In this document: positions 8,048 to 58,092 of the stretch, in pieces
Numbering within the stretch: the first letter of the stretch is position 1
Layout: each line of letters opens with the position of its first letter
DNA from: a virus
Lineage: Duplodnaviria > Heunggongvirae > Uroviricota > Caudoviricetes
Length of the DNA: 64,000 bases
Strand: one strand, 5' to 3'
Virus record (IMG/VR): IMGVR_UViG_3300045988_155182
Notes under the pieces: model-generated
The model's input: the letters and a program-made list of their open reading frames with translations, nothing else
Database searches by the model: none
Told to the model about the DNA's origin: nothing
Made by a program: the position numbers and the translations under genes

Positions 8048-8572
8048 TCAAAAAGGCAAAATTCGTTCAACCCAATCGAACAAAACAACTATTTTTCTAC
8101 CGTTCTCGACACGTAGTGTAACCTGACAAGCATCTGCGCCTGCTGACACCCCCTCAATTTCACGGCCATCCGCCATGTACACCCTTATAGATTTGTTTGC
8201 TTTGTAGGCTTGGTTGCAAATTGCAAAAAAATCGCGGCGTGATGGCCGATTATCGACATAATCAGGGTGAACTGTTAGTCGACCTTTGAAATCGTGAGCG
8301 ATACTGTCAAACACACCTGATTCAATGGTACTAATGCGTTCAAGTGGGAGCCTTATACGATTTTCTTTGTCAAAAGGGGCTGGGCAAAGGTCAACTTTGT
8401 TACGAGATGGCATGAGGCCATAAACGTACATGCAAAACGCCTGACCATCTTCGAGAGTGACCCTTACAGGAATTTGTTCTCTGCGCCAGAACATCAGTAG
8501 TTTTTCAACGTTAGTGTAATCTCGCGGCCAGAGTTCAGCTTGGATACCGTAGGTAATATCTTTGGTTGTCAT
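8048..8572 (-). CDS. Hypothetical protein
   Basis: ORF track 8048..8608; internal Met gives start/stop coupling with the upstream lipoprotein gene. Confidence 0.45.
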   Translation of the reverse strand: MTTKDITYGIQAELWPRDYTNVEKLLMFWRREQIPVRVTLEDGQAFCMYVYGLMPSRNKVDLCPAPFDKENRIRLPLERISTIESGVFDSIAHDFKGRLTVHPDYVDNRPSRRDFFAICNQAYKANKSIRVYMADGREIEGVSAGADACQVTLRVENGRKIVVLFDWVERILPF

Positions 8573-8576
8573 GTCA

Positions 8577-9041
8577 TCACAGAGTTGTTGGCAGAATGTC
8601 GATGTCACCAGAATTGCTGGTGAACACCCTGAATGCTTTTGTGTCTCTATTCTTCAGAGTCGTTTCTCGCTCTTGACGAGCGGGGTTTAGAGCACATAAA
8701 CCTGCACCTTCAAGAGATGCACCCACAATTAATTCTCCGGCATTTAAATGGAAAGTCGCTTTTTCGCCTGTAGCCAGTTTTGCGACAGTTTCGCCGTTGA
8801 TGAAAATGGAAGCATCACATCCAGCTCCTACAAAACCTGTGTCTCTCATTACCACCAACGTAGCTGGCGCTGCGCTTTGATACTTGAACACTTTGGCCTG
8901 CGGTGCTGGTTTGGCGTCATGGATTGATATTGGGCGTGATTGGCACGCGGTAAGCATCAACACTGGTAACGTTAGTAGAGGGAGAAGCGAGTATTTCATG
9001 ATAGTTTTAGAACAGAAAGTGAACAGTATGGGAGACTTCAT
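8577..9041 (-). CDS. Putative lipoprotein (lipobox LTAC); candidate superinfection-exclusion protein
   Basis: ORF track; hydrophobic segment followed by L-T-A-C; start ambiguous (9041 has GGGAGA RBS; Met at 8999 gives a shorter, more typical signal peptide). Confidence 0.5.
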   Translation of the reverse strand: MKSPILFTFCSKTIMKYSLLPLLTLPVLMLTACQSRPISIHDAKPAPQAKVFKYQSAAPATLVVMRDTGFVGAGCDASIFINGETVAKLATGEKATFHLNAGELIVGASLEGAGLCALNPARQERETTLKNRDTKAFRVFTSNSGDIDILPTTL

Positions 9042-30520: not shown

Positions 30521-31310
30521 TAAAGCAATCCCTGAGCTTGGCTCTGATGTTATGCAGCAAATCTATCTCTGCGCCATAAATCGCTACCCTAATGAAGCGT
30601 GTGGCTTTCTGGTGAGAACTAATGGCGACAAATATCGCTTTATGGAAGCGCGAAATGTTTCGGAGAACCCGCAGAACACTTTTGTAATGCACGTTGACGA
30701 CATTATGGCGGCAGAGGATGCAGGTGACGTAATCGCAATCTGGCATTCACATACTGATGAATCAGCAGAAGCATCTGATGCCGATCGTGCAGGCTGTGAA
30801 GCGACGGAAGTTCCGTGGATGATTCTGGCTATTCGCAAGAATGTTGAGGGAGATGCCCCTTTCCATTTTAGCGAGATGAATGTGATCACACCTGATGGTT
30901 TCGAAATGCCATACCTGGGTAGACCGTATGTATTTGGCGTATTCGATTGCTGGATGTTGTGTCGGGACTATTTGAAGCGTGAGTTTAACGTCGAGCTTAA
31001 CCCGAACGCACACCTGCATATTCCATCGTGGTACACCGGCGATAACGACATTCTCGACCAGAACTACCGAAACGAGGGATTGGTACGGCTTGCACCTGGA
31101 ACAGAGCCTCAACGTGGGGACGTCTTCTTTATTCAATACGGGAAAATGCCAGATCACTGCGCGGTTTATATCGGCGATGGAATGATTCTTCATCACCAGA
31201 TCGACCGTCTTAGTTGTCGTGCTTATTACGGCGGAATGTATCAGAAACATACGACGCATCACTTGCGTCACAGAGACTTGCTCAAGGGAGATGAGACGTG
31301 TCTGAGTTAG
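30513..31310 (+). CDS. Tail tip assembly protein, lambda gpK-like (MPN/JAB + NlpC/P60)
   Basis: HSH..E JAB-like motif and NlpC/P60-like FDCWMLCRDY; ATG overlaps the L stop. Confidence 0.75.
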   Translation: MGNKAIPELGSDVMQQIYLCAINRYPNEACGFLVRTNGDKYRFMEARNVSENPQNTFVMHVDDIMAAEDAGDVIAIWHSHTDESAEASDADRAGCEATEVPWMILAIRKNVEGDAPFHFSEMNVITPDGFEMPYLGRPYVFGVFDCWMLCRDYLKREFNVELNPNAHLHIPSWYTGDNDILDQNYRNEGLVRLAPGTEPQRGDVFFIQYGKMPDHCAVYIGDGMILHHQIDRLSCRAYYGGMYQKHTTHHLRHRDLLKGDETCLS

Positions 31311-36729: not shown

Positions 36730-39700
36730 ATGTGGTACAGGGAAGGTACTATCACATTTACACAGGGTAGCAATACTCTGGTTGGGGCAGGGACAGCCTG
36801 GAACGTAACAGCTAATGGTGTGTTGCCGGGGATGATCGTCATTGGCCCCGACAATAAGCTGTATGAGATCAAGCGCGTAATAAGCGATACGAATATTGTT
36901 CTCTCAGAACCTTATACCGGCGAAACTCAGTCTGAGGTTCCGTGCCGAATCATTACGACCTATGAAGGCGACTTAACACAGTTTAGCGCGCGCTTTACTG
37001 CGCTAATGTCGCGTATGTCGGCTGATTCCAAGTCCATGCGCAGTTGGTTGACTGCGCTGGATGAGGTGACAATCGAGCGTGAAGACGGTACAGAAGTAAC
37101 CGTTAAGCCGCTAATGCAGATCGTCAACGAGCACAACGAAAACGTTGAGTGGTATAAAAATAACACTGACGCGATTGATGCTGCTGGCGACAAAGCTCGT
37201 GAGGCGGCGGCCAGTGCTGCCGCAGCAGCAGAAAGCGCCAATACCGCTGGAGAAAAAGCCTCTCAAGCGTCTCAAAGTGCATCCGCTGCGGCATCCTCAC
37301 AAAGTGCCGCAAGTGCGAGTGCAACTGCTGCGAAAAAATCTGAAACGAATGCCGCAGCGTCACAACAATCAGCAGCCACTTCTGCATCCACCGCGACCAC
37401 GAAAGCGTCAGAAGCTGCCACCTCAGCCCGGGATGCGGCGGCCTCAAAAGAGGCAGCGAAATCATCAGAAACGAACGCATCCTTGAGCGCCAGTAGCGCA
37501 GCTTCCTCGGCAACGGCGGCAGGAAATTCCGCGAAGGCGGCAAAAACGTCCGAGACGAACGCCAGGTCTTCTGAGACGGCAGCGGGACAGAGCGCCTCAG
37601 CTGCGGCAGGCTCAAAAACAGCGGCTGCGTCGTCTGCCAGTGCCGCGTCAACAAGTGCCGGGCAGGCCTCAGCCAGTGCCACCGCCGCCGGAAAATCGGC
37701 AGAAAGTGCCGCATCGTCTGCTTCAACAGCCACAACGAAGGCTGGCGAAGCCACTGAACAGGCCAGCGCAGCAGCGAGGTCTGCTTCCGCAGCGAAGACA
37801 TCCGAAACGAACGCGAAAGCGTCGGAAACCAGCGCAGAATCCTCAAAAACGGCTGCCGCATCGTCCGCCAGTTCGGCGGCGTCATCGGCATCATCTGCGT
37901 CTGCTTCAAAAGATGAGGCGACCAGACAGGCGTCAGCAGCGAAGGGCAGTGCCACGACGGCATCCACGAAAGCAACAGAGGCGGCAGGCAGTGCGACGGC
38001 AGCATCTCAGAGCAAAACTGCTGCTGAATCCGCTGCGACCCGTGCGGAAGCTGCTGCTGATCGTGCTGAAGAGATTGCCGGTGCAGTTGCGATGGAAGAC
38101 GCAAGCCTTACAACTAAAGGTGTTGTGAAACTTAGCAGTGCTGTTGATAGCACCAGTGAATCGCTGGCCGCAACGCCAAAAGCAGTTAAAGCAGCCAATG
38201 ACAATGCGAATAGCAGGGTGCCATCTAACCGAAAAGTTAACGGAAAAGCACTGACTGCGGATATAACATTAACGCCGAAAGATATTGGTACTTTAAATTC
38301 AGTAACGATGTCTTTCTCTGGCGGGGCTGGGTGGTTCAAACTGGCTACGGTTACCATGCCACAAGCGAGTTCCATCGTTTACATCGCATTGATTGGTGGC
38401 GCTGGTTACAACGTCGGTTCCCCACATCAGGCAGGCATTTCAGAACTGGTTCTACGAGCAGGCAATGGAAACCCCAAAGGAATTACCGGGGCTTTGTGGA
38501 AGCGTACAGCCGTCGGATTAACGAATTTCGCCTGGATCAACACATCCGGCGATACATATGATATTTACGTTGAGATTGGCAATTATGCGACTCGTGTAAA
38601 TATCCATTGGGATTGTACTGCAAATGCGACAGTTTCTATTTATACATCGCCAACATATTCAGCGAGTAAGCCTTCCAGCGTTACCGATGGTGTTGTTTAT
38701 ACGATGTATAGCTCACATCAGAAACCGACGCCGTTAGATATTGGAGCACTGCCAACAACCGGAGGAACAGTTTCAGGTCCGTTGTCTGTTACAGGTGGAT
38801 TAACTGGTTCATTGAATGGTAATGCAAGTACAGCCACGAAATTGCAGACGGCAAGATCTATCGGTGGAGTTGTTTTCGACGGTTCTGCAAATATTAACCT
38901 TCCAGGTGTAAACACTACGGGTAATCAGAACACCACTGGTAATGCTGCAACTGCTACAAAACTTCAGACGGCAAGAACTATCGGCGGCGTGAGCTTTGAT
39001 GGTACTGCGAATATTAATTTGCCAGGTGTTAATACGACTGGTAATCAGAACACAACGGGCAACGCGGCTACTGCTACGAAGTTGCAGACTGCGCGTACTA
39101 TCAATGGGGTGTCGTTTGACGGCTCGGCAAATATTGCCTTGTCGCCAGCAAATATAGGTTGCCCGGCATCTCCTACTGGTTGGCTTGTAACAGGTGATAA
39201 TGGAGCTTCAATAACAACAGAGCAATTAGTGACTCTGCTACGAGATAATGGTGCTTTTAGTGTAAAGGCATGGATAGCGCGTTGTGCCTGGGCGTATGCA
39301 AATAGTGCATCCATACCAGACAGCGAAACAGGATGCGGCATTATTCCACTGGCTGGCGCAGTTATTGAGGTATTTAATAAAGGCAGTAGCTCAAACAATT
39401 ATACGATTCGTATAACAACGGCAACAACGACAGGTGTCTCTGGCGCACTCACTAATGCGGAGTTTGTCTATGTGTTTAATGGGACGACCTATTCACCAGG
39501 ATGGCGCAGAGCGTATAACACTAAAAACAAGCCTACTGCGGCTGATGTCGGAGCTTTACCACTATCTGGAGGGGCGTTAACTGGCGGATTAACTGCTGCT
39601 GGCGAGATAATTTCCAAATCGGCGAATGGTCTGCGCATTGCCTACGGAAACTACGGATTCTTTATCCGAAATGATGGATTGGACACATATTTCATGCTAA

Positions 39701-42082: not shown

Positions 42083-42670
42083 GTGAACATGGACTTCACA
42101 ATGAGTGAACAACCACGGACCATAAAAATTTATAATCTGTTGGCCGGAACCAATGAATTTATTGGTGAAGGTGATGCATATATTCCACCTCATACGGGGC
42201 TGCCAGCTTATTCTACGGATATAGCGCCACCGGATGTACCTGCTGGCTTCGTGGCCGTATTCAACAGCGAAAATAAATCATGGAGTCTCGTTGAAGACCA
42301 CAGGGGTAAAACGGTCTATGACGTGGAATCAGGGGACGCGTTGTTTATTTCTGAACTTGGGCCATTACCGGAAAATGTCACCTGGTTATCACCGGATGGG
42401 GAATATCAGAAGTGGGACGGCACATCCTGGGAGAAGGATGAGGAAACAGAAAAATTGTTTCAGGTACGGGAAGCGGAAGAAACAAAAAAAAGTCTGATGC
42501 AGGTAGCCAGCGAGCACATTGCGCCACTTCAGGATGCTGTAGATTTGGAGATTGCAACGGAGGAAGAAGCATCGTTGCTGACTGCATGGAAGAAGTATAG
42601 AGTTTTATTGAACCGCATTGACACATCAACGGCACCGGATATTGACTGGCCAACAATACCAGCAGAGTAA
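42083..42670 (+). CDS. Tail fibre assembly protein (Tfa)
   Basis: Size and C-terminal W.KYR.LLNRID....DWP..P pattern typical of lambda-type Tfa. Confidence 0.75.
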
Positions 42671-55057: not shown

Positions 55058-55344
55058 GCAATTTAACTTCTTGGGACTGGTGGTTGGCCACCTATTTCTT
55101 AGCGGCCGGAGTCGCATTCGCCTTTTACGTAGGTCAGTTAGTCGTAAAACTGCTGCTGATTAAATTTGCCAGTCATAAACGTATCGATGATGGTCTGTGG
55201 CGTCTTGGCACCCTGGTGGAAACTCGCTACGGGCAACTTAAGGAGAACGAAACCATTACTATCCAAGCGAAACGATTCACTGCCACCATCACAAGAACAC
55301 CTAGTCGTAGAGTGGCCTTGATCAAAAAAGTCACAACCGAATAA
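55054..55344 (+). CDS. Membrane protein (96 aa)
   Basis: ORF track; N-terminal hydrophobic helix. Confidence 0.45.
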   Translation: MSNLTSWDWWLATYFLAAGVAFAFYVGQLVVKLLLIKFASHKRIDDGLWRLGTLVETRYGQLKENETITIQAKRFTATITRTPSRRVALIKKVTTE

Positions 55345-55353
55345 AATTACAAT

Positions 55354-55375
55354 GATAAGTATTTACTTACTTATC
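55354..55375. repeat. GATAAGTA-TTTACT-TACTTATC palindrome
   Basis: Seen directly. Confidence 0.5.
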
Positions 55376-56122
55376 TTTTATGTATAAGATGACTTTGTTT
55401 TCGTTGAGACGCGACTGTTTGAACTTAAATACAAGTGCAAACGAAGAAGTCTATCTGGCAGTAGCCTAATAAGCCAAACACCAGCGAGGTCAGTTTCCAG
55501 CCTCGTTACCGAAATGGGATACACTGAGCGAGTGTGATTACAGAACGCAGGAGGGAACATGAATGTTCCCTCCGATGAAGTAACAGAATGGGCGGTTGGT
55601 ATATTTTCAACTCCATATGACTCCCGGATTCTTAGCCACTGACCGCCCATCCTGTTACGTCATTTTGTTCAATTATGTCGTTTATACTGGGTTAAAAAGC
55701 GGCGACGTAGCCCGGCTGGTATGGTTAGCCAGCACACAACGTTGAGGCCATTACATTTTTATCAATTCTAAGGTTCTATTCACAGAGATACCGGCGAGCG
55801 TTGATATGTAACATGTTGGGCAAACATTCAATCGGAGTAGTGGCCTCAACGTTGTGAAGACAGGATTGTTGTGTAGGTTTAACCACTGTTGCCATTGGTG
55901 CCTGTTTTCACAACAAATGATTCCATACATCACATTGTATAAATTACAAAGTAGGTGCTGTCCTCAGAAACATCATCTACTTAAAGAGTTTGCCTTCTAC
56001 TATTGAGCGAAGTCGAAAGCGTCTGGCACTAACGAAAAGTGCAAGTAGCGGTGCGTTTCCTGGCAGAAACTAAACCGTCGCGATTGGCACTGTTGAGTAA
56101 TGAATACAGGCAGTGCTGAATT

Positions 56123-56197
56123 GATGGTGTAGCTCAGCGGTAGAGCAGTTGGCTGTTAACCAACTGGTCGGTGGTTCGAATCCACCCACCATCGCCA
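56123..56197 (+). tRNA. tRNA-Asn (anticodon GTT)
   Basis: Acceptor stem gatggtg/caccatc, anticodon loop cTGTTAa, T-loop GGTTCGAATCC, encoded CCA. Confidence 0.8.
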
Positions 56198-56199
56198 AT

Positions 56200-56275
56200 G
56201 CCGGTTTAGCTCAGTTGGTAGAGCGCCTGCCTTGTAAGCAGGATGTCAGCGGTTCGAGTCCGTTAACCGGCACCA
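56200..56275 (+). tRNA. tRNA-Thr (anticodon TGT)
   Basis: Acceptor stem gccggtt/aaccggc, anticodon loop cTTGTAa, T-loop GGTTCGAGTCC, encoded CCA. Confidence 0.8.
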
Positions 56276-56498
56276 ATACAACGATAAGATCATTACGGTT
56301 AATCGTCGTTCATGTGCACAATGACTGGTCGAAAGGTAGTGATCTTACCGTTGTGGTGGATTCGCAGACTGATGCGATAGCTTTCTTGGATGTTAGGGAA
56401 ATGCGGCCGCAAATCTTCCCTTTCGCGAGCGGTGATCGTCCGTAGTCCTAATTGGCTGCACCGTATGCCGGAGATTCAGTACCGGCCACCACAACGGC

Positions 56499-56585
56499 CG
56501 GAGAGTAGGGAGCATGGTGCTCAAGCGGTCTTGAAAACCGTCCCATTGCGCAAGCGATGATGGTTCGATTCCATTACTCTCCGCC
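56499..56585 (+). tRNA. tRNA-Ser (anticodon TGA), type II with long variable arm
   Basis: Acceptor stem ggagagt/actctcc, anticodon loop cTTGAAa, long variable arm, T-loop GGTTCGATTCC, encoded CCA. Confidence 0.7.
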
Positions 56586-56586
56586 A

Positions 56587-56665
56587 GACACAGCGTTGAG
56601 CGGTTTGGCCTTTTAATCAACTCGATTAAGACTCCGCTAACATAAACCAGACCGCTCAACGCTGT
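56587..56665. repeat. Perfect 16 bp inverted repeat (cacagcgttgagcggt ... accgctcaacgctgtg) with about 46 nt loop, directly after tRNA-Ser
   Basis: Seen directly. Confidence 0.6.
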
Positions 56666-56740
56666 GATAGACAATTACGGCAGACGTTCTTAACCATAGC
56701 TTGCTAACATCCTAGCAACACTTTTTTAAGCGCAAAATCC

Positions 56741-56766
56741 AAAGGGGCTTCGGCCCCTTTTTTGTT
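56741..56766. terminator. Bidirectional terminator (aaaggggc-ttcg-gccccttttttt)
   Basis: Seen directly; sits between the tRNA cluster and the convergent minus-strand gene. Confidence 0.6.
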
Positions 56767-57673
56767 AATGATTGCCTAGATATGATTTTAGTTCTTCTTT
56801 AATGATTAGTGAGTATTCTAAAATATCACTTAGTAAAAATTTTGCTCTGTTAAAATACCCACCAAAAGAACCTAAAATTTCAGATGGTCTTTCTAAGAGC
56901 ATCACAATATCATCTTCTTGCACTTTAGTAATGTAACTTCTAACAGCTCTTTCTCCAATAACTCTTTTCTTACCGTTTATTTCAGATTCATCTAAAACCT
57001 TATTTATAAATTTTTCTGTATCATTGAATCGTCCACTATTGTGTACTATTGTATGTCTTAGTAGTTCAATTAGCTTGATGTTAAAGCGATAGTTTTTGCC
57101 AATCTTGTTGTTTGTTTCTATCTCTTTGAAGCCAGGTATTTTATTTCTGAAAATTTTAGTTATTTTTTTCGATGGGTTACTTTTTGCTTTTAATAATCTG
57201 TAATAAACTTCCCTTTTCCCAATTTCATCATCTTCAACCTTACCAAAATCACTTGAGGACCATAAATCATTTCGAACACATACAGTATAGACATATATTG
57301 CCTCAATATAGTCTTCCAGTAACTCATAGGCTTCAGTAATAACCCACTGATATTGTTTATTTTTCAAAGTATTACACAATCTTATCTTTTCTTCTAAATC
57401 AATGGCGCTGTTACCTATCTCTAATGTTGAACCTGTATATGGGTTTGAACATAAATGGCGAGCTAACGTTGTGCCACACTTAATCTTAATAGTTTCATTA
57501 ATATTAATAATAGTATCTGGATTCTGTGCATACTCCACTTCTTTAAGAAGACGTTTTATATTTTTCTTTGTTGTATCATTTATCTGATTTAAATAGTCAA
57601 AAAGTAAAGATATTTCTTCTCTAAATTCGTTGTATTTATTTTCAATCAAAGAATCAGACAACTTACCAATCAT
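56765..57673 (-). CDS. HEPN-like / Abi-family candidate protein (302 aa), AT-rich
   Basis: Rx4H motif (LLRHTIVHNSG) in the C-terminal half; only minus-strand gene in this block; markedly AT-rich, Lys/Asn/Ile-rich. Confidence 0.45.
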   Translation of the reverse strand: MIGKLSDSLIENKYNEFREEISLLFDYLNQINDTTKKNIKRLLKEVEYAQNPDTIININETIKIKCGTTLARHLCSNPYTGSTLEIGNSAIDLEEKIRLCNTLKNKQYQWVITEAYELLEDYIEAIYVYTVCVRNDLWSSSDFGKVEDDEIGKREVYYRLLKAKSNPSKKITKIFRNKIPGFKEIETNNKIGKNYRFNIKLIELLRHTIVHNSGRFNDTEKFINKVLDESEINGKKRVIGERAVRSYITKVQEDDIVMLLERPSEILGSFGGYFNRAKFLLSDILEYSLIIKEELKSYLGNH

Positions 57674-57758
57674 TAAAACCTCTATAAAATGTACATTTCA
57701 AGGCAATCCTTACTGTAATCTATTGTCGTAATCACTTCAATTGTTTACTAGTCAATCA

Positions 57759-57780
57759 ATAAGTTACTACATACTTATCA
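57759..57780. repeat. TAAGTA palindrome variant (aataagttactacatacttatc)
   Basis: Seen directly. Confidence 0.45.
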
Positions 57781-57846
57781 AAAAAATCTGTTTGTAGTAT
57801 AGTCTGATATGTTCGAATCAATATTTATAAAGGTATTTGTTAAGTT

Positions 57847-58092
57847 ATGACGATCACTATCTACGGACGAGATAACTGCTCATACTGCAAACGTGCGGTC
57901 GAGCTGGCGAAGCAACTAAAGGGACATGGCTACGGTGATTATGAGTACATCGACATCACCACTGCCGGTATCGACAAGGAAAAACTAAGTGAAATTGTTG
58001 GTAAACCGGTAGAGACTATCCCCCAGGTGCTGATCGATGGCCAGCCGATTGGCGGATACACAGAACTGGCTGCATACGTCAGCACCCTCTGA
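57847..58092 (+). CDS. Glutaredoxin / NrdH-like redoxin (81 aa)
   Basis: CSYC active-site motif near the N-terminus; size. Confidence 0.7.
   Translation: MTITIYGRDNCSYCKRAVELAKQLKGHGYGDYEYIDITTAGIDKEKLSEIVGKPVETIPQVLIDGQPIGGYTELAAYVSTL

What the first reader, a model, noticed from the sequence alone, without database searches (positions are those of the whole stretch)
56123..56585. Three phage-borne tRNAs (Asn-GTT, Thr-TGT, Ser-TGA) next to the HEPN-like gene
Phage tRNAs can compensate codon usage, but they can also replace host tRNAs cut by anticodon nucleases. tRNA-Asn is among the known targets of colicin E5-type nucleases. Their position directly beside a candidate RNase gene is notable.
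Basis: partly seen in the sequence, partly recalled or inferred. Interest (0 to 1): 0.45.

Follow-up and report, generated by a model that had tools for sequence, protein, structure and literature searches.

The report
Phage-plasmid tRNA operon, odd serine tRNA
Three real transfer-RNA genes on an E. coli phage-plasmid, one with an unusual "8/4" shape, most likely keep the element's protein synthesis supplied and perhaps buffered against a host tRNA-cutting defence, while the RNase-like gene next door looks like unrelated cargo in a defence-gene hotspot.

Summary
In detail: tRNA-Asn(GUU), tRNA-Thr(UGU) and tRNA-Ser(UGA) lie at 56123-56586 on an SSU5/pHCM2-like phage-plasmid. Asn and Thr are the P1 trnA/trnT type. 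"Ser" fails the general tRNA model and is a non-canonical 8/4 tRNA (8-bp acceptor, 4-bp T-stem), the same type as phage T5 tRNA-Ser1. It occurs in 331 of 5,426 complete E. coli genomes. The three genes end a unit: promoter-like site, ~780-nt conserved structured leader, Asn, Thr, hairpin, Ser, hairpin, terminator.

- The anticodon loops are identical to the host's, so the colicin-E5/loop-mutation idea finds no support.
- Codon usage fits Ser and Thr (TCT 2.1x, TCA 1.9x, ACA 1.6x) but hardly fits Asn.
- Thr(UGU) and Asn(GUU) are two of the three main targets of the PARIS nuclease AriB. Both window tRNAs lack U39, a base shown for tRNA-Lys to be needed for cleavage. Thr has the same site as T5's tRNA-Thr. 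No tRNA-Lys is present.
- The neighbour is HEPN-like (fold, invariant Rx4H). About 10% of elements with this tRNA carry it, and other elements hold AbiH or other genes in that slot. Coupling is not supported.

The parts
55318..55347 (+). sigma-70-like promoter candidate (TTGATC-18-TAAAAT) at the end of the upstream ORF; a possible start of the leader-tRNA transcript
   Evidence: Consensus scan only. Fewer such sites were found in the region than in shuffles, so this is weak.
55345..56122 (+). ~780-nt non-coding leader upstream of the tRNAs: a near-invariant block (~55390-55545) followed by three long hairpins (55550-55573, 55575-55663, 55735-55856)
   Evidence: No credible ORF. Homologous in 773 PLSDB plasmids of Klebsiella, Escherichia, Enterobacter, Yersinia, Salmonella, Citrobacter and Cronobacter. 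RNAalifold gives 119 pairs. 98.2% of cells pair, and 11 pairs show compensatory change against 3.4+-1.3 in shuffles. There are 167 G.U cells against 7 A.C cells, and paired columns are 92% identical against 72% for unpaired ones. Hairpin z-scores are -5.8 and -6.1. No Rfam match.
56123..56197 (+). tRNA-Asn(GUU), canonical cloverleaf, G73, encoded CCA. Positions 36-41 read UAACC|A, against host UAAUC|C
   Evidence: 75.5 bits.
56200..56275 (+). tRNA-Thr(UGU), canonical cloverleaf, A73, encoded CCA. Positions 36-41 read UAAGC|A, against host UAAUC|A; the hexamer is identical to that of phage T5 tRNA-Thr
   Evidence: 74.9 bits. Identical or nearly so in P1, P7 and D6.
56273..56359 (+). 24-bp hairpin starting within the encoded CCA of tRNA-Thr; its base carries the ACAACG...CGTTGT motif
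   Evidence: I2; -33.7 kcal/mol, z -4.9; a counterpart with a different stem sequence is present in P7 and D6.
56348..56497 (+). 126-nt spacer enclosed by perfect 12-nt inverted repeats (CCGTTGTGGTGG / CCACCACAACGG); function unknown
   Evidence: I11. The spacer is almost identical in P7 and D6 and absent from the Klebsiella relatives. Its fold is only weakly better than shuffles (z -2.4). No tRNA or Rfam call.
56500..56586 (+). Non-canonical (8/4) tRNA-Ser(UGA): 8-bp acceptor stem, 2-nt linker, 4-bp D-stem with an AUGGU loop, 5-bp anticodon stem, loop CUUGAAA, 6-bp variable arm, 4-bp T-stem, G73, encoded CCA
   Evidence: pair 8:85 is kept through 2 double changes, the alternative pair 69:85 breaks in exactly those sequences, and column 69 covaries with column 46. 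T5 tRNA-Ser1 has the same architecture.
56589..56666 (+). 20-bp hairpin right after tRNA-Ser, sharing the CACA[A/G]CGTTGAG stem base with the leader hairpin at 55735-55856
   Evidence: I4, D6, D7; -41.2 kcal/mol, z -9.7. Identical in Klebsiella; replaced by a different, still self-complementary stem in P7 and D6.
56741..56760 (.). Intrinsic terminator (GGGGCTTCGGCCCC plus a T-run on the + strand, preceded by a run of A) between the tRNA unit and the convergent 302-aa gene; probably serves both
   Evidence: sequence; also conserved in a Klebsiella relative that lacks the 302-aa gene.
56765..57673 (-). 302-aa HEPN-like protein (neighbour, not part of the tRNA unit): AT-rich variable cargo in a defence-type hotspot

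Best explanation
The three genes form the 3' part of one transcription unit of an SSU5/pHCM2-like phage-plasmid: promoter-like site, ~780-nt structured leader, tRNA-Asn, tRNA-Thr, hairpin, spacer, tRNA-Ser, hairpin, terminator.

It is a mobile tRNA-supply module that P1-like and SSU5-like phage-plasmids exchange and reshuffle. All three genes have the features of chargeable, translating tRNAs.

What they probably supply:
- Ser(UGA) and Thr(UGU) supplement host decoders (serT, thrU) of codons the element uses 1.6-2.1 times more often than the host does.
- Thr(UGU) and Asn(GUU) are also cognates of host tRNAs that the PARIS effector AriB destroys. Both carry a non-U base at position 39, a determinant of AriB cleavage. 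They may therefore also keep translation running when such a tRNA-depleting defence fires.

The Ser gene is a phage-type 8/4 tRNA-Ser like T5 tRNA-Ser1. It is probably charged by host SerRS through its G73, its GGA acceptor start and its long variable arm.

The adjacent HEPN-like gene is independent cargo: one of many alternative abortive-infection-type genes inserted in the variable slot after the tRNA terminator.

Shown: gene calls, folds, covariation, distribution, codon counts, site sequences. Inferred: expression, charging, nuclease resistance and any benefit.
For: - tRNA calls and scores.
- Shared module: 98% identity to E. coli phage-plasmids; Asn-Thr 92-95% identical to P1, P7 and D6. 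Module compositions vary: Asn-Tyr-Thr-Ser in 23 loci, Asn-Ser in 19, Asn-Thr-Ser-Met(CAU) in 11, and Arg(UCU)-headed versions.
- In P1 and P7 the tRNAs lie downstream of the C1-controlled ban operator; the P7 record says it controls their expression.
- 8/4 fold. T5 tRNA-Ser1 is the same type, and the T5 record says its suppressor derivative works well in E. coli. Mukai et al. show that 8/4 tRNAs translate in E. coli (PMC5389517).
- Codon usage: TCT 2.12x, TCA 1.92x, ACA 1.61x, ACT 1.56x.
- AriB: the targets are Lys(UUU), Thr(UGU) and Asn(GUU); the cut is at 40|41; U39->A in tRNA-Lys abolishes cleavage (PMC12409363). Window Thr reads UAAGC|A, the same as T5 Thr; window Asn reads UAACC|A; host thrU and asnT keep U39. 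The window Thr is closer overall to thrU (80%) than to T5 Thr (68%), so the shared site is not explained by overall closeness to T5 Thr. G39 occurs in 58 of 63 Thr copies in the loci.
- Supply alone can defeat a tRNA-depleting defence (PMC11555353).
- Independence of the HEPN-like gene.
Against: - There are no expression, charging or cleavage data.
- tRNA-Lys(UUU), the primary AriB target, whose T5 variant was required for rescue, is absent from every phage-plasmid module seen. Asn plus Thr alone would therefore not neutralise the characterised PARIS system.
- Half of the Asn copies, including those of P1, SSU5 and Klebsiella, keep the fully cleavable-looking UAAUC|A.
- The 31:39 pair varies among tRNAs generally, so a non-U39 is weak evidence on its own. 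AriB also needs contacts elsewhere in the tRNA.
- Codon usage does not explain Asn (AAC 1.21x, AAT 1.04x; four host asn genes), although Asn is the most widely kept member of the module.
- More strongly enriched codons (AGA, AAG, AGG, CGA, ATA) have no tRNA here.
- Gene calls for the codon counts were crude ORFs, and the host sample was 69 genes.
Confidence: 0.55

Rival explanations
1. Pure codon-usage compensation. The tRNAs only top up decoders for codons the AT-richer element uses more than E. coli does. The position-39 differences and the 8/4 shape are neutral legacies of the tRNAs' foreign origin.
For: TCT, TCA, ACA and ACT are among the ten most enriched codons. The cognate host tRNA genes serT and thrU were found once each in the K-12 regions examined. 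The anticodon loops are identical to the host's. No tRNA-Lys is present. Half of the Asn copies keep U39.
Against: Asn codons are barely enriched and the host has four asn genes, yet Asn is the most conserved member of the module. The most enriched codons (AGA, AAG, AGG) have no tRNA here. Both AriB-target cognates deviate at exactly the tested determinant.
Confidence: 0.25
2. The HEPN-like protein is a tRNA-cutting RNase, and the neighbouring tRNAs are its resistant replacements, giving self-immunity or an addiction module.
For: HEPN-like fold and invariant Rx4H. In the enterobacterial elements where both positions were seen, the gene lies 180-240 bp from tRNA-Ser. Allo-tRNAs have been reported near toxin-antitoxin loci (PMC5389517).
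Against: About 90% of elements with the tRNAs lack any homologue. P7 and D6 carry Asn-Thr-Ser with TerB-family (tciA/terB) genes downstream instead. The same slot holds unrelated Abi-type genes in other elements. The protein family has 312 cluster representatives, and the one non-enterobacterial context examined showed only ordinary protein genes nearby, though it was not scanned for tRNAs. The genes are convergent and separated by a terminator.
Confidence: 0.05
3. Protection against colicin E5-type anticodon nucleases, which cut Tyr, His, Asn and Asp tRNAs in the anticodon.
For: tRNA-Asn is here and tRNA-Tyr is present in many relatives; both are E5 targets according to van den Berg et al. 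(PMC10264068). Extra supply alone could help.
Against: The loops of Asn (CUGUUAA) and of the relatives' Tyr (CUGUAAA) are identical to the host's, so there is no sign of resistance. Thr and Ser are not E5 targets.
Confidence: 0.03
4. Hitch-hiking or non-translational role. The tRNA genes persist as recombination scars or hotspots, or as processing or stability elements of the long leader transcript. The odd Ser RNA is a tRNA-like regulatory RNA rather than a decoder.
For: The module is mosaic, with repeated hairpins and remnants: D6 has a T-arm-like piece inside one hairpin. Transposons are reported to insert near these tRNA loci. Some allo-tRNAs are inactive in translation.
Against: All stems are maintained by compensatory change, and the identity elements and encoded CCA are intact. 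The T5 homologue is annotated as an efficient suppressor when its anticodon is changed. The module is retained in hundreds of plasmids.
Confidence: 0.07

Closest known systems
Phage P1, P7 and D6 tRNA genes trnA (Asn) and trnT (Thr), plus the D6/P7 Ser gene, in the C1-controlled ban operon
   Same: The Asn-Thr pair is 92-95% identical, in the same order and with 2-5 nt spacing. P7 and D6 also carry the same Ser gene and the same Thr-Ser spacer.
   Different: Here the module sits in an SSU5-like backbone behind a different, ~780-nt conserved leader, and it lacks the Ile2/Met(CAU) tRNA. The Asn has C39 instead of U39. The P7 record does not annotate the Ser gene, and the D6 record flags it as not callable by tRNAscan-SE.
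(8/4) tRNA-Ser / allo-tRNA class (Mukai et al. 2017, PMC5389517) and phage T5 tRNA-Ser1(UGA)
   Same: 8-bp acceptor plus 4-bp T-stem (12 bp in total), long variable arm, G73/U73, GG-Y in a short D-loop, and false-positive similarity to the tRNA-Sec model. Reported 'in bacteriophages, proteobacteria'.
   Different: The anticodon is a normal Ser anticodon, so no recoding is implied. The D-stem is 4 bp (5 at most) with a 5-nt (or 3-nt) loop, not the 5-6 bp stem plus tetraloop of typical allo-tRNAs. The anticodon stem is 5 bp. Whether this enterobacterial phage-plasmid tRNA was in the published set could not be checked, because the supplement is not held.
[quoted passage not shown] 2024, PMC11464382; Belukhina et al. 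2025, PMC12409363)
   Same: Cognates of two of the three main AriB targets are present. Both have a substitution at position 39 next to the 40|41 cut site. The Thr hexamer UAAGC|A is identical to T5's.
   Different: There is no tRNA-Lys(UUU). The carrier is a temperate phage-plasmid rather than a lytic phage. Resistance is untested, and many relatives' Asn copies keep the host-like UAAU motif.
HEPN-domain RNase toxins and abortive-infection proteins (HEPN-MNT toxins, Csm6/Csx1, the AbiA HEPN domain)
Hotspots of antiviral systems in P2 phages and P4 satellites (Rousset et al. 2022, PMC9122126)
   Same: A fixed slot between conserved flanks (the tRNA terminator on one side, phoH/grxA on the other) holds alternative single-gene cargo. 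That cargo includes AbiH (2.6e-62), a putAbiC-like protein and an HNH-effector-like protein.
   Different: The slot is in SSU5/P1-type phage-plasmids. Only part of the cargo is recognisable as defence, and no phenotype has been tested.
Long stable RNAs next to phage tRNAs: T5 RNAX (719 nt, directly upstream of tRNA-Arg); GOLLD and ROOL (from my own knowledge)
   Same: The layout is promoter, then a several-hundred-nucleotide structured non-coding RNA, then tRNA(s) on the same strand (for T5).
   Different: The leader has no sequence similarity to RNAX and no Rfam hit, GOLLD and ROOL included. It is dominated by three long near-perfect hairpins.

Membership tests
Canonical tRNA (Rfam RF00005) | Score at or above the gathering cut-off (29 bits) with a 7/5 cloverleaf | tested here: met
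   Asn 75.5 bits, Thr 74.9 bits.
Canonical tRNA (Rfam RF00005), the Ser gene | Score at or above the gathering cut-off with a 7/5 cloverleaf | tested here: not met
   No gathering-level hit for 56500-56586. The best clan member is tRNA-Sec at 46.6 bits. The 7/5 alternative loses its fifth T-stem pair wherever that column varies.
(8/4) tRNA-Ser / allo-tRNA (Mukai 2017) | 12-bp acceptor branch split as an 8-bp acceptor stem plus a 4-bp T-stem | tested here: met
   Pair 8:85 is AU in 22, GC in 1 and UA in 1, with none unpaired. Pair 70:84 is AU in 22, GC in 1 and UA in 1. The rival pair 69:85 is GU in 22 and broken in 2. Column 69 pairs with column 46 (CG 22, UA 1, UG 1). The distinction rests on 2-3 divergent sequences.
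(8/4) tRNA-Ser / allo-tRNA (Mukai 2017) | Long variable arm and discriminator G73 or U73 (SerRS identity elements) | tested here: met
   6-bp variable stem with covariation. G73 in the window; G or U in most relatives, A in two.
(8/4) tRNA-Ser / allo-tRNA (Mukai 2017) | tRNA-Sec-like D-arm (long stem, tetraloop) and a longer anticodon stem | tested here: inconclusive
   The D-stem has 4 covarying pairs plus a possible fifth A:U that is not conserved, and the loop is AUGGY. The T5 homologue has 5 bp plus a GUGG tetraloop. The anticodon stem is only 5 bp.
(8/4) tRNA-Ser / allo-tRNA (Mukai 2017) | Serylation by SerRS and activity in translation | not testable with these tools
   Indirect only. 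The T5 record states that an anticodon-changed tRNA-Ser1 is an effective amber suppressor. Allo-tRNAs insert Ser in E. coli.
tRNA-Sec (Rfam RF01852) | UCA anticodon, 13-bp acceptor branch (8/5 in bacteria), score >= 47 bits | tested here: not met
   The anticodon is UGA (it reads UCA codons), the branch is 8/4 = 12 bp, and the score is 46.6 bits.
Anticodon-nuclease-evading phage tRNAs (van den Berg 2023) | Anticodon-loop substitutions relative to the host cognate at nuclease recognition positions | tested here: not met
   Loops 32-38 are identical to asnT, thrU and serT (and, for the relatives' Tyr, to tyrU).
PARIS/AriB-neutralising phage tRNA set (T5) | Cognates of the AriB targets carrying substitutions at or around the 40|41 cut site (U39, A41) | tested here: met
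   Thr reads UAAGC|A and Asn reads UAACC|A, against host UAAUC|A and UAAUC|C. T5 has UAAGC|A and UAAGU|U.
PARIS/AriB-neutralising phage tRNA set (T5) | A resistant tRNA-Lys(UUU), required for rescue in every assay reported | tested here: not met
   There is no tRNA-Lys in the window or in any phage-plasmid module.
PARIS/AriB-neutralising phage tRNA set (T5) | Resistance to AriB cleavage and rescue of infection | not testable with these tools
   This needs in vitro cleavage and plating assays.
Codon-compensating phage tRNAs | Cognate codons over-represented in the element relative to the host | tested here: inconclusive
   Met for Ser (TCT 2.12x, TCA 1.92x) and Thr (ACA 1.61x, ACT 1.56x). Weak for Asn (1.21x and 1.04x). 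More strongly enriched codons have no tRNA here.
HEPN superfamily (neighbouring gene) | Rx4-6H catalytic motif in an all-alpha HEPN fold | tested here: met
HEPN superfamily (neighbouring gene) | Membership of a described HEPN sequence family; RNase activity | tested here: not met
   No significant Pfam hit for any of 40 members: the best HEPN hit is HEPN_RnaseLS at E = 0.033 in one member. No PADLOC hit and no relevant PDB sequence match, the best hit being an unrelated halogenase at E 0.0017. RNase activity cannot be tested here.
Phage/satellite defence hotspot | Conserved flanks with alternative, unrelated cargo that includes known defence genes | tested here: met
   Downstream of tRNA-Ser there are many unrelated protein clusters (24 by the crude clustering used). 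They include AbiH (PF14253, 2.6e-62), a putAbiC-like protein, a PDC-M68A/HNH-effector-like protein and a second protein with an Rx4H motif.

The most novel reading that the evidence does not exclude
The module is a counter-defence kit of temperate phage-plasmids. Thr(UGU) and Asn(GUU) would be AriB-resistant replacements or decoys, aimed at PARIS or related Toprim/OLD-type tRNases whose target sets differ from the one characterised. The optional Tyr would answer retron-Eco7-type tRNA-Tyr depletion. The 8/4 geometry of the Ser tRNA would let it escape an as yet unidentified nuclease that recognises the canonical tRNA-Ser body. In addition, the conserved ~780-nt leader would be a new class of large structured RNA, co-transcribed with tRNAs, that controls their processing or abundance.
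Probability: 0.15. Interest if true: 0.7.

Novelty: new member of a known kind. Interest (0 to 1): 0.4.

Why it matters
Phage-plasmids of the P1 and SSU5/pHCM2/pMT1 groups are common in clinical Enterobacteriaceae. The 8/4 tRNA-Ser alone is present in about 6% of complete E. coli genomes.

Three testable points follow:
1. A non-canonical tRNA that standard tools mis-score or label 'tRNA-OTHER' is a routine component of these elements and of phage T5.
2. The long-unexplained P1-type Asn-Thr pair matches two of the three main targets of the PARIS nuclease. In this window both tRNAs differ from the host at position 39, which was shown for tRNA-Lys to be critical for cleavage. Temperate elements may therefore use tRNAs against tRNA-depleting immunity, as T5 does.
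3. The slot beside the tRNAs is a hotspot that can be mined for new abortive-infection genes, including an uncharacterised HEPN-like family of about 300 cluster representatives.

None of this changes a paradigm. It extends known ideas to a new and medically frequent class of element.

Tried and rejected
- tRNA-Sec reading of the third gene. Rejected: wrong anticodon, a 12-bp rather than 13-bp branch, and a score just below the cut-off.
- 9/3 fold. Rejected by eye on alignment A1: the 70:84 pair switches to U-A in L017, where G9 would face A.
- Anticodon-loop comparison for nuclease evasion. The loops are identical to the host's. Only later reading of the AriB paper drew attention to stem position 39.
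- Pfam, PADLOC and PDB sequence searches of the 302-aa protein and of 40 relatives gave nothing. The afdb50 fold library was unavailable.
- 'Every tRNA is followed by a CACAACG hairpin'. A crude scan found the motif mainly after Ser (45 of 94) and rarely after the others, so the idea was dropped as a general rule.
- The island between tRNA-Asn and cobT as an integrase-borne insertion at the tRNA. No duplicated tRNA 3' end or att-like repeat was found.
- Leader against T5 RNAX: no similarity. Leader against Rfam (DicF, GOLLD and ROOL included): no hit.
- The P1 genome paper and the allo-tRNA supplement are not held. Whether this exact tRNA was already listed as 8/4 is therefore unknown.
- Whether PARIS restricts P1 was not found in the passages shown from Rousset et al..
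Full report
**1. Observation.** ARAGORN finds three tRNA genes in the whole window: Asn(gtt) 56123-56197, Thr(tgt) 56200-56275 and Ser(tga) 56500-56586, all on the + strand. Rfam's tRNA model scores Asn at 75.5 bits and Thr at 74.9 bits against a cut-off of 29. The Ser gene reaches no gathering score. In a permissive scan it aligns best to the tRNA-Sec model, at 46.6 bits against a cut-off of 47, with a long acceptor stem and a long D-stem. The stated neighbour is a 302-aa ORF on the - strand (56765-57673), lying in the most AT-rich kilobase of the window.

**2. What element this is.** The 1.4-kb tRNA region is 98% identical to Escherichia phage CMS-2020a and phage Cyrano, and at least 80% of it is found in 199 E. 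coli replicons, almost all of them plasmids. These are SSU5/pHCM2-type phage-plasmids. The surrounding genes fit this: ATP-dependent ligase, CobT/CobS-like proteins, ParB, helicase, glutaredoxin and a tyrosine recombinase.

The Asn-Thr pair is 92-95% identical to trnA/trnT of P1, P7 and D6. P7 and D6 also carry the same Ser gene. The D6 record notes that its amino acid was 'not called by tRNAscan-SE', the P7 record does not annotate it, and PGAP sometimes labels it 'tRNA-OTHER'. In P1 and P7 the tRNAs lie downstream of the C1-controlled ban operator.

The composition of the module varies between elements:
- Asn-Tyr-Thr-Ser in 23 loci
- Asn-Ser in 19
- Asn-Thr-Ser-Met(CAU) in 11
- Arg(UCU)-Tyr-Thr-Ser-Met in 7
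- Asn-Thr-Ser in 6, this window among them

Relative to its closest relatives, the window cleanly lacks a tRNA-Tyr between Asn and Thr. SSU5 itself has only Asn, followed directly by its CobT-like ('porphyrin biosynthetic') gene.

**3. The Ser gene is an 8/4 tRNA.** A pattern scan of viral contigs returned about 90 loci with the same architecture, comprising 24 distinct tRNA sequences. On their alignment, an 8-bp acceptor / 4-bp T-stem cloverleaf pairs in 97.2% of cells. Compensatory changes occur in 18 of 27 pairs; none of 500 shuffles reaches this, and slid controls give 5-9.

The pairs that separate 8/4 from the canonical 7/5 fold behave as follows:
- Pair 8:85 is kept through two double changes (to G-C and to U-A).
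- The alternative fifth T-stem pair 69:85 breaks in exactly those two sequences.
- Column 69 covaries instead with column 46, as the base of the variable-arm stem.

The base at -1 is not conserved, so the stem has 8 pairs followed by G73 and an encoded CCA. The acceptor start G1-C72, G2-C71, A3-U70, together with G73 and the long variable arm, are the serine identity elements (from my own knowledge).

This is the '(8/4) tRNA-Ser' described by Mukai et al. (PMC5389517) as occurring 'in bacteriophages, proteobacteria and rumen bacteria' and as a false positive of tRNA-Sec searches. Phage T5 tRNA-Ser1(UGA) has the same architecture, and the T5 record states that its anticodon-changed derivative is an effective amber suppressor. 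In some large phage tRNA arrays other Ser isoacceptors are also 8/4, while in others they are 7/5. The gene is present in 331 of 5,426 complete E. coli genomes and in 573 PLSDB plasmids.

**4. Test of the 'nuclease-resistant replacement' idea.** The 7-nt anticodon loops of Asn, Thr and Ser, and of the relatives' Tyr, are identical to those of E. coli asnT, thrU, serT and tyrU. The tRNA bodies are 66-80% identical.

The literature adds two points. First, over-supply of an unaltered tRNA can by itself overcome a tRNA-depleting defence (PMC11555353). [quoted passage not shown] It cuts between positions 40 and 41 of the anticodon stem, next to a U36-A-A-U39 motif. U39->A in tRNA-Lys abolishes cleavage and A41->C inhibits it. 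The T5 Lys, Thr and Asn variants, which all carry changes there, together neutralise PARIS (PMC12409363).

Positions 36-41 compare as follows:

| tRNA | Thr(UGU) | Asn(GUU) |
|---|---|---|
| E. coli host | UAAUC\|A | UAAUC\|C |
| Phage T5 | UAAGC\|A | UAAGU\|U |
| This window | UAAGC\|A | UAACC\|A |

Both window tRNAs therefore lack U39. The window Thr is closer overall to host thrU (80%) than to T5 Thr (68%), so the shared site is not explained by overall closeness to T5 Thr.

Points against this reading:
- No tRNA-Lys occurs in any phage-plasmid module, and the T5 tRNA-Lys was required for rescue.
- P1, SSU5 and Klebsiella Asn keep UAAUC|A; the loci split 35 with C39 against 35 with U39.
- AriB also needs contacts elsewhere in the tRNA.
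- The 31:39 pair varies among tRNAs generally.

I treat this as a specific, testable lead and not as a demonstrated function.

**5. Codon usage.** I compared 71 crude ORFs of the window with 69 annotated K-12 genes. TCT (2.12x), TCA (1.92x), ACA (1.61x) and ACT (1.56x) are among the ten most enriched codons. Their host decoders serT and thrU were found once each in the K-12 regions examined. Asn codons are barely enriched (AAC 1.21x, AAT 1.04x), and four asn genes lie in a single K-12 region. AGA, AAG, AGG, CGA and ATA are also strongly enriched (1.8-2.5x) but have no tRNA here. Codon compensation therefore fits Ser and Thr but does not explain Asn, which is the most widely retained member of the module.

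**7. Is it coupled to the tRNAs?** Of 96 loci with the 8/4 tRNA-Ser, 10 have a homologue. In PLSDB, 58 plasmids have any homologue against 573 with the tRNA. In complete E. coli genomes, 19 carry this allele against 331 with the tRNA. When present in enterobacterial elements, the gene always sits 180-240 bp beyond tRNA-Ser and is convergent with it. Its alleles are only 38-59% identical to one another.

In other elements the same slot holds AbiH (PF14253, 2.6e-62; PADLOC AbiH), a putAbiC-like protein, an HNH-effector-like PDC-M68A protein, another protein with an Rx4H motif, a sialate-esterase-like protein, or unknown proteins. In P1-type elements it holds TerB-family (tciA/terB) genes. This is the pattern of a cargo or defence hotspot (compare PMC9122126). 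The adjacency reflects where the slot lies, just after the tRNA terminator, and gives no evidence of a shared function.

**8. Anatomy around the tRNAs.** A strong intrinsic terminator at 56741-56760 closes the unit. Long hairpins follow Thr (56273-56359) and Ser (56589-666), with z-scores of -4.9 and -9.7. They share an ACA[A/G]CG...CG[T/C]TGT base with a hairpin in the leader. In P7 and D6 the corresponding stems have different but still self-complementary sequences.

Upstream, 55345-56122 has no credible ORF. It is homologous in 773 plasmids of seven genera, including Y. pestis pMT1-type plasmids. Ten divergent copies support a multi-hairpin structure:
- 119 pairs, with 98.2% of cells paired
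- 11 pairs with compensatory change, against 3.4+-1.3 in shuffles
- paired columns 92% identical, against 72% for unpaired columns
- 167 G.U cells against 7 A.C cells, so the structure fits the + strand transcript that also carries the tRNAs

Rfam has no match for it. T5 offers a precedent for this layout: promoter P16-17, then the 719-nt stable 'RNAX', then tRNA-Arg. There is no sequence similarity between the two. Divergence among the copies is modest, so the evidence for a structured RNA is suggestive and not conclusive.

**9. Verdict.** The tRNAs are real and are already annotated in many public records, and the class of each is known. What is added here:
- recognition that the Ser gene is a T5-type 8/4 tRNA, common in enterobacterial phage-plasmids;
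- the match of the Asn/Thr pair, and of position 39 in both, to the PARIS AriB specificity;
- the defence-type hotspot beside the operon;
- the conserved structured leader.

I rate the finding of moderate interest, as a new member of known kinds.

Noticed in passing
window 55345-56122: A ~780-nt non-coding leader upstream of the tRNAs is conserved in 773 plasmids of the SSU5/pHCM2/pMT1 supergroup. It has a near-invariant 150-nt block and three long hairpins kept by compensatory changes. The G.U bias shows that the + strand RNA is the structured form. There is no Rfam family for it.
   Followed up: partly
window 55735-55856, 56273-56359, 56589-56666: Three 20-24-bp hairpins share the stem-base motif ACA[A/G]CG...CG[T/C]TGT, and two of them follow a tRNA directly. 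In D6 the equivalent hairpin encloses a T-arm-like remnant (GGGTTCGAATCCC). They could be RNase III-type processing stems or cassette boundaries left by tRNA gain and loss.
   Followed up: partly
window 56348-56497: A 126-nt segment between Thr and Ser is enclosed by perfect 12-nt inverted repeats. The segment is almost identical in P7 and D6 and absent from Klebsiella relatives. It gives no tRNA or Rfam call and has no convincing ORF; its function is unknown.
   Followed up: partly
window 56197-56200 versus L001 4862-4948: Most close relatives carry an 87-nt tRNA-Tyr(GUA) between Asn and Thr, which this window cleanly lacks. tRNA-Tyr is the target of the retron-Eco7 effector PtuAB (PMC11555353), so its presence or absence could track defence pressure.
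   Followed up: partly
window 56765-57850 and the same slot in L006, L012, L019-L022, L024, L051, L055, L070: The slot after the tRNA terminator is a hotspot. Besides the HEPN-like gene it holds AbiH, a putAbiC-like protein, an HNH-effector-like protein (PDC-M68A), a second protein with an Rx4H motif, and several unannotated 350-510-aa proteins.
   Followed up: partly
L114 (phage T5, NC_005859) 30845-30934: T5 tRNA-Ser1(UGA) has the same 8/4 architecture (GGAAGGUA...UACCUUCC, T-stem AUGG/CCAU, U73). My pattern scan missed it because its T-loop differs by one base. T5 tRNA-Ser2 and tRNA-Ser3 look different.
   Followed up: partly
L111 (Y. pestis plasmid pG8786) 1001-2394: In this pMT1-type plasmid the conserved leader is followed directly by caf1R of the F1 capsule locus. 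The tRNA genes appear to have been replaced there.
   Followed up: no
window 42432-42630: There is a strong Rfam hit to IS009 (189.6 bits, E 1e-45). It lies inside a 195-aa ORF (42083-42670), so it may be a coding-sequence match and not an sRNA.
   Followed up: no
window 8048-8608 (-): This ORF matches Pfam Flag1_repress (the FljA repressor of phase-1 flagellin, 3.7e-84). An FljA-like regulator on a phage-plasmid is unexpected.
   Followed up: no
window 37001-38000 and 1001-2000: Two compositional outliers: 59% G+C with AT skew +0.32 at 37-38 kb, and GC skew -0.36 with AT skew +0.29 at 1-2 kb.
   Followed up: no
L101-L103 (Klebsiella SSU5-like contigs) 1-1243: A colicin M-domain gene and a microcin-like gene lie 3-4 kb from the tRNA/HEPN slot, next to a YafO-family toxin gene.
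   Followed up: no
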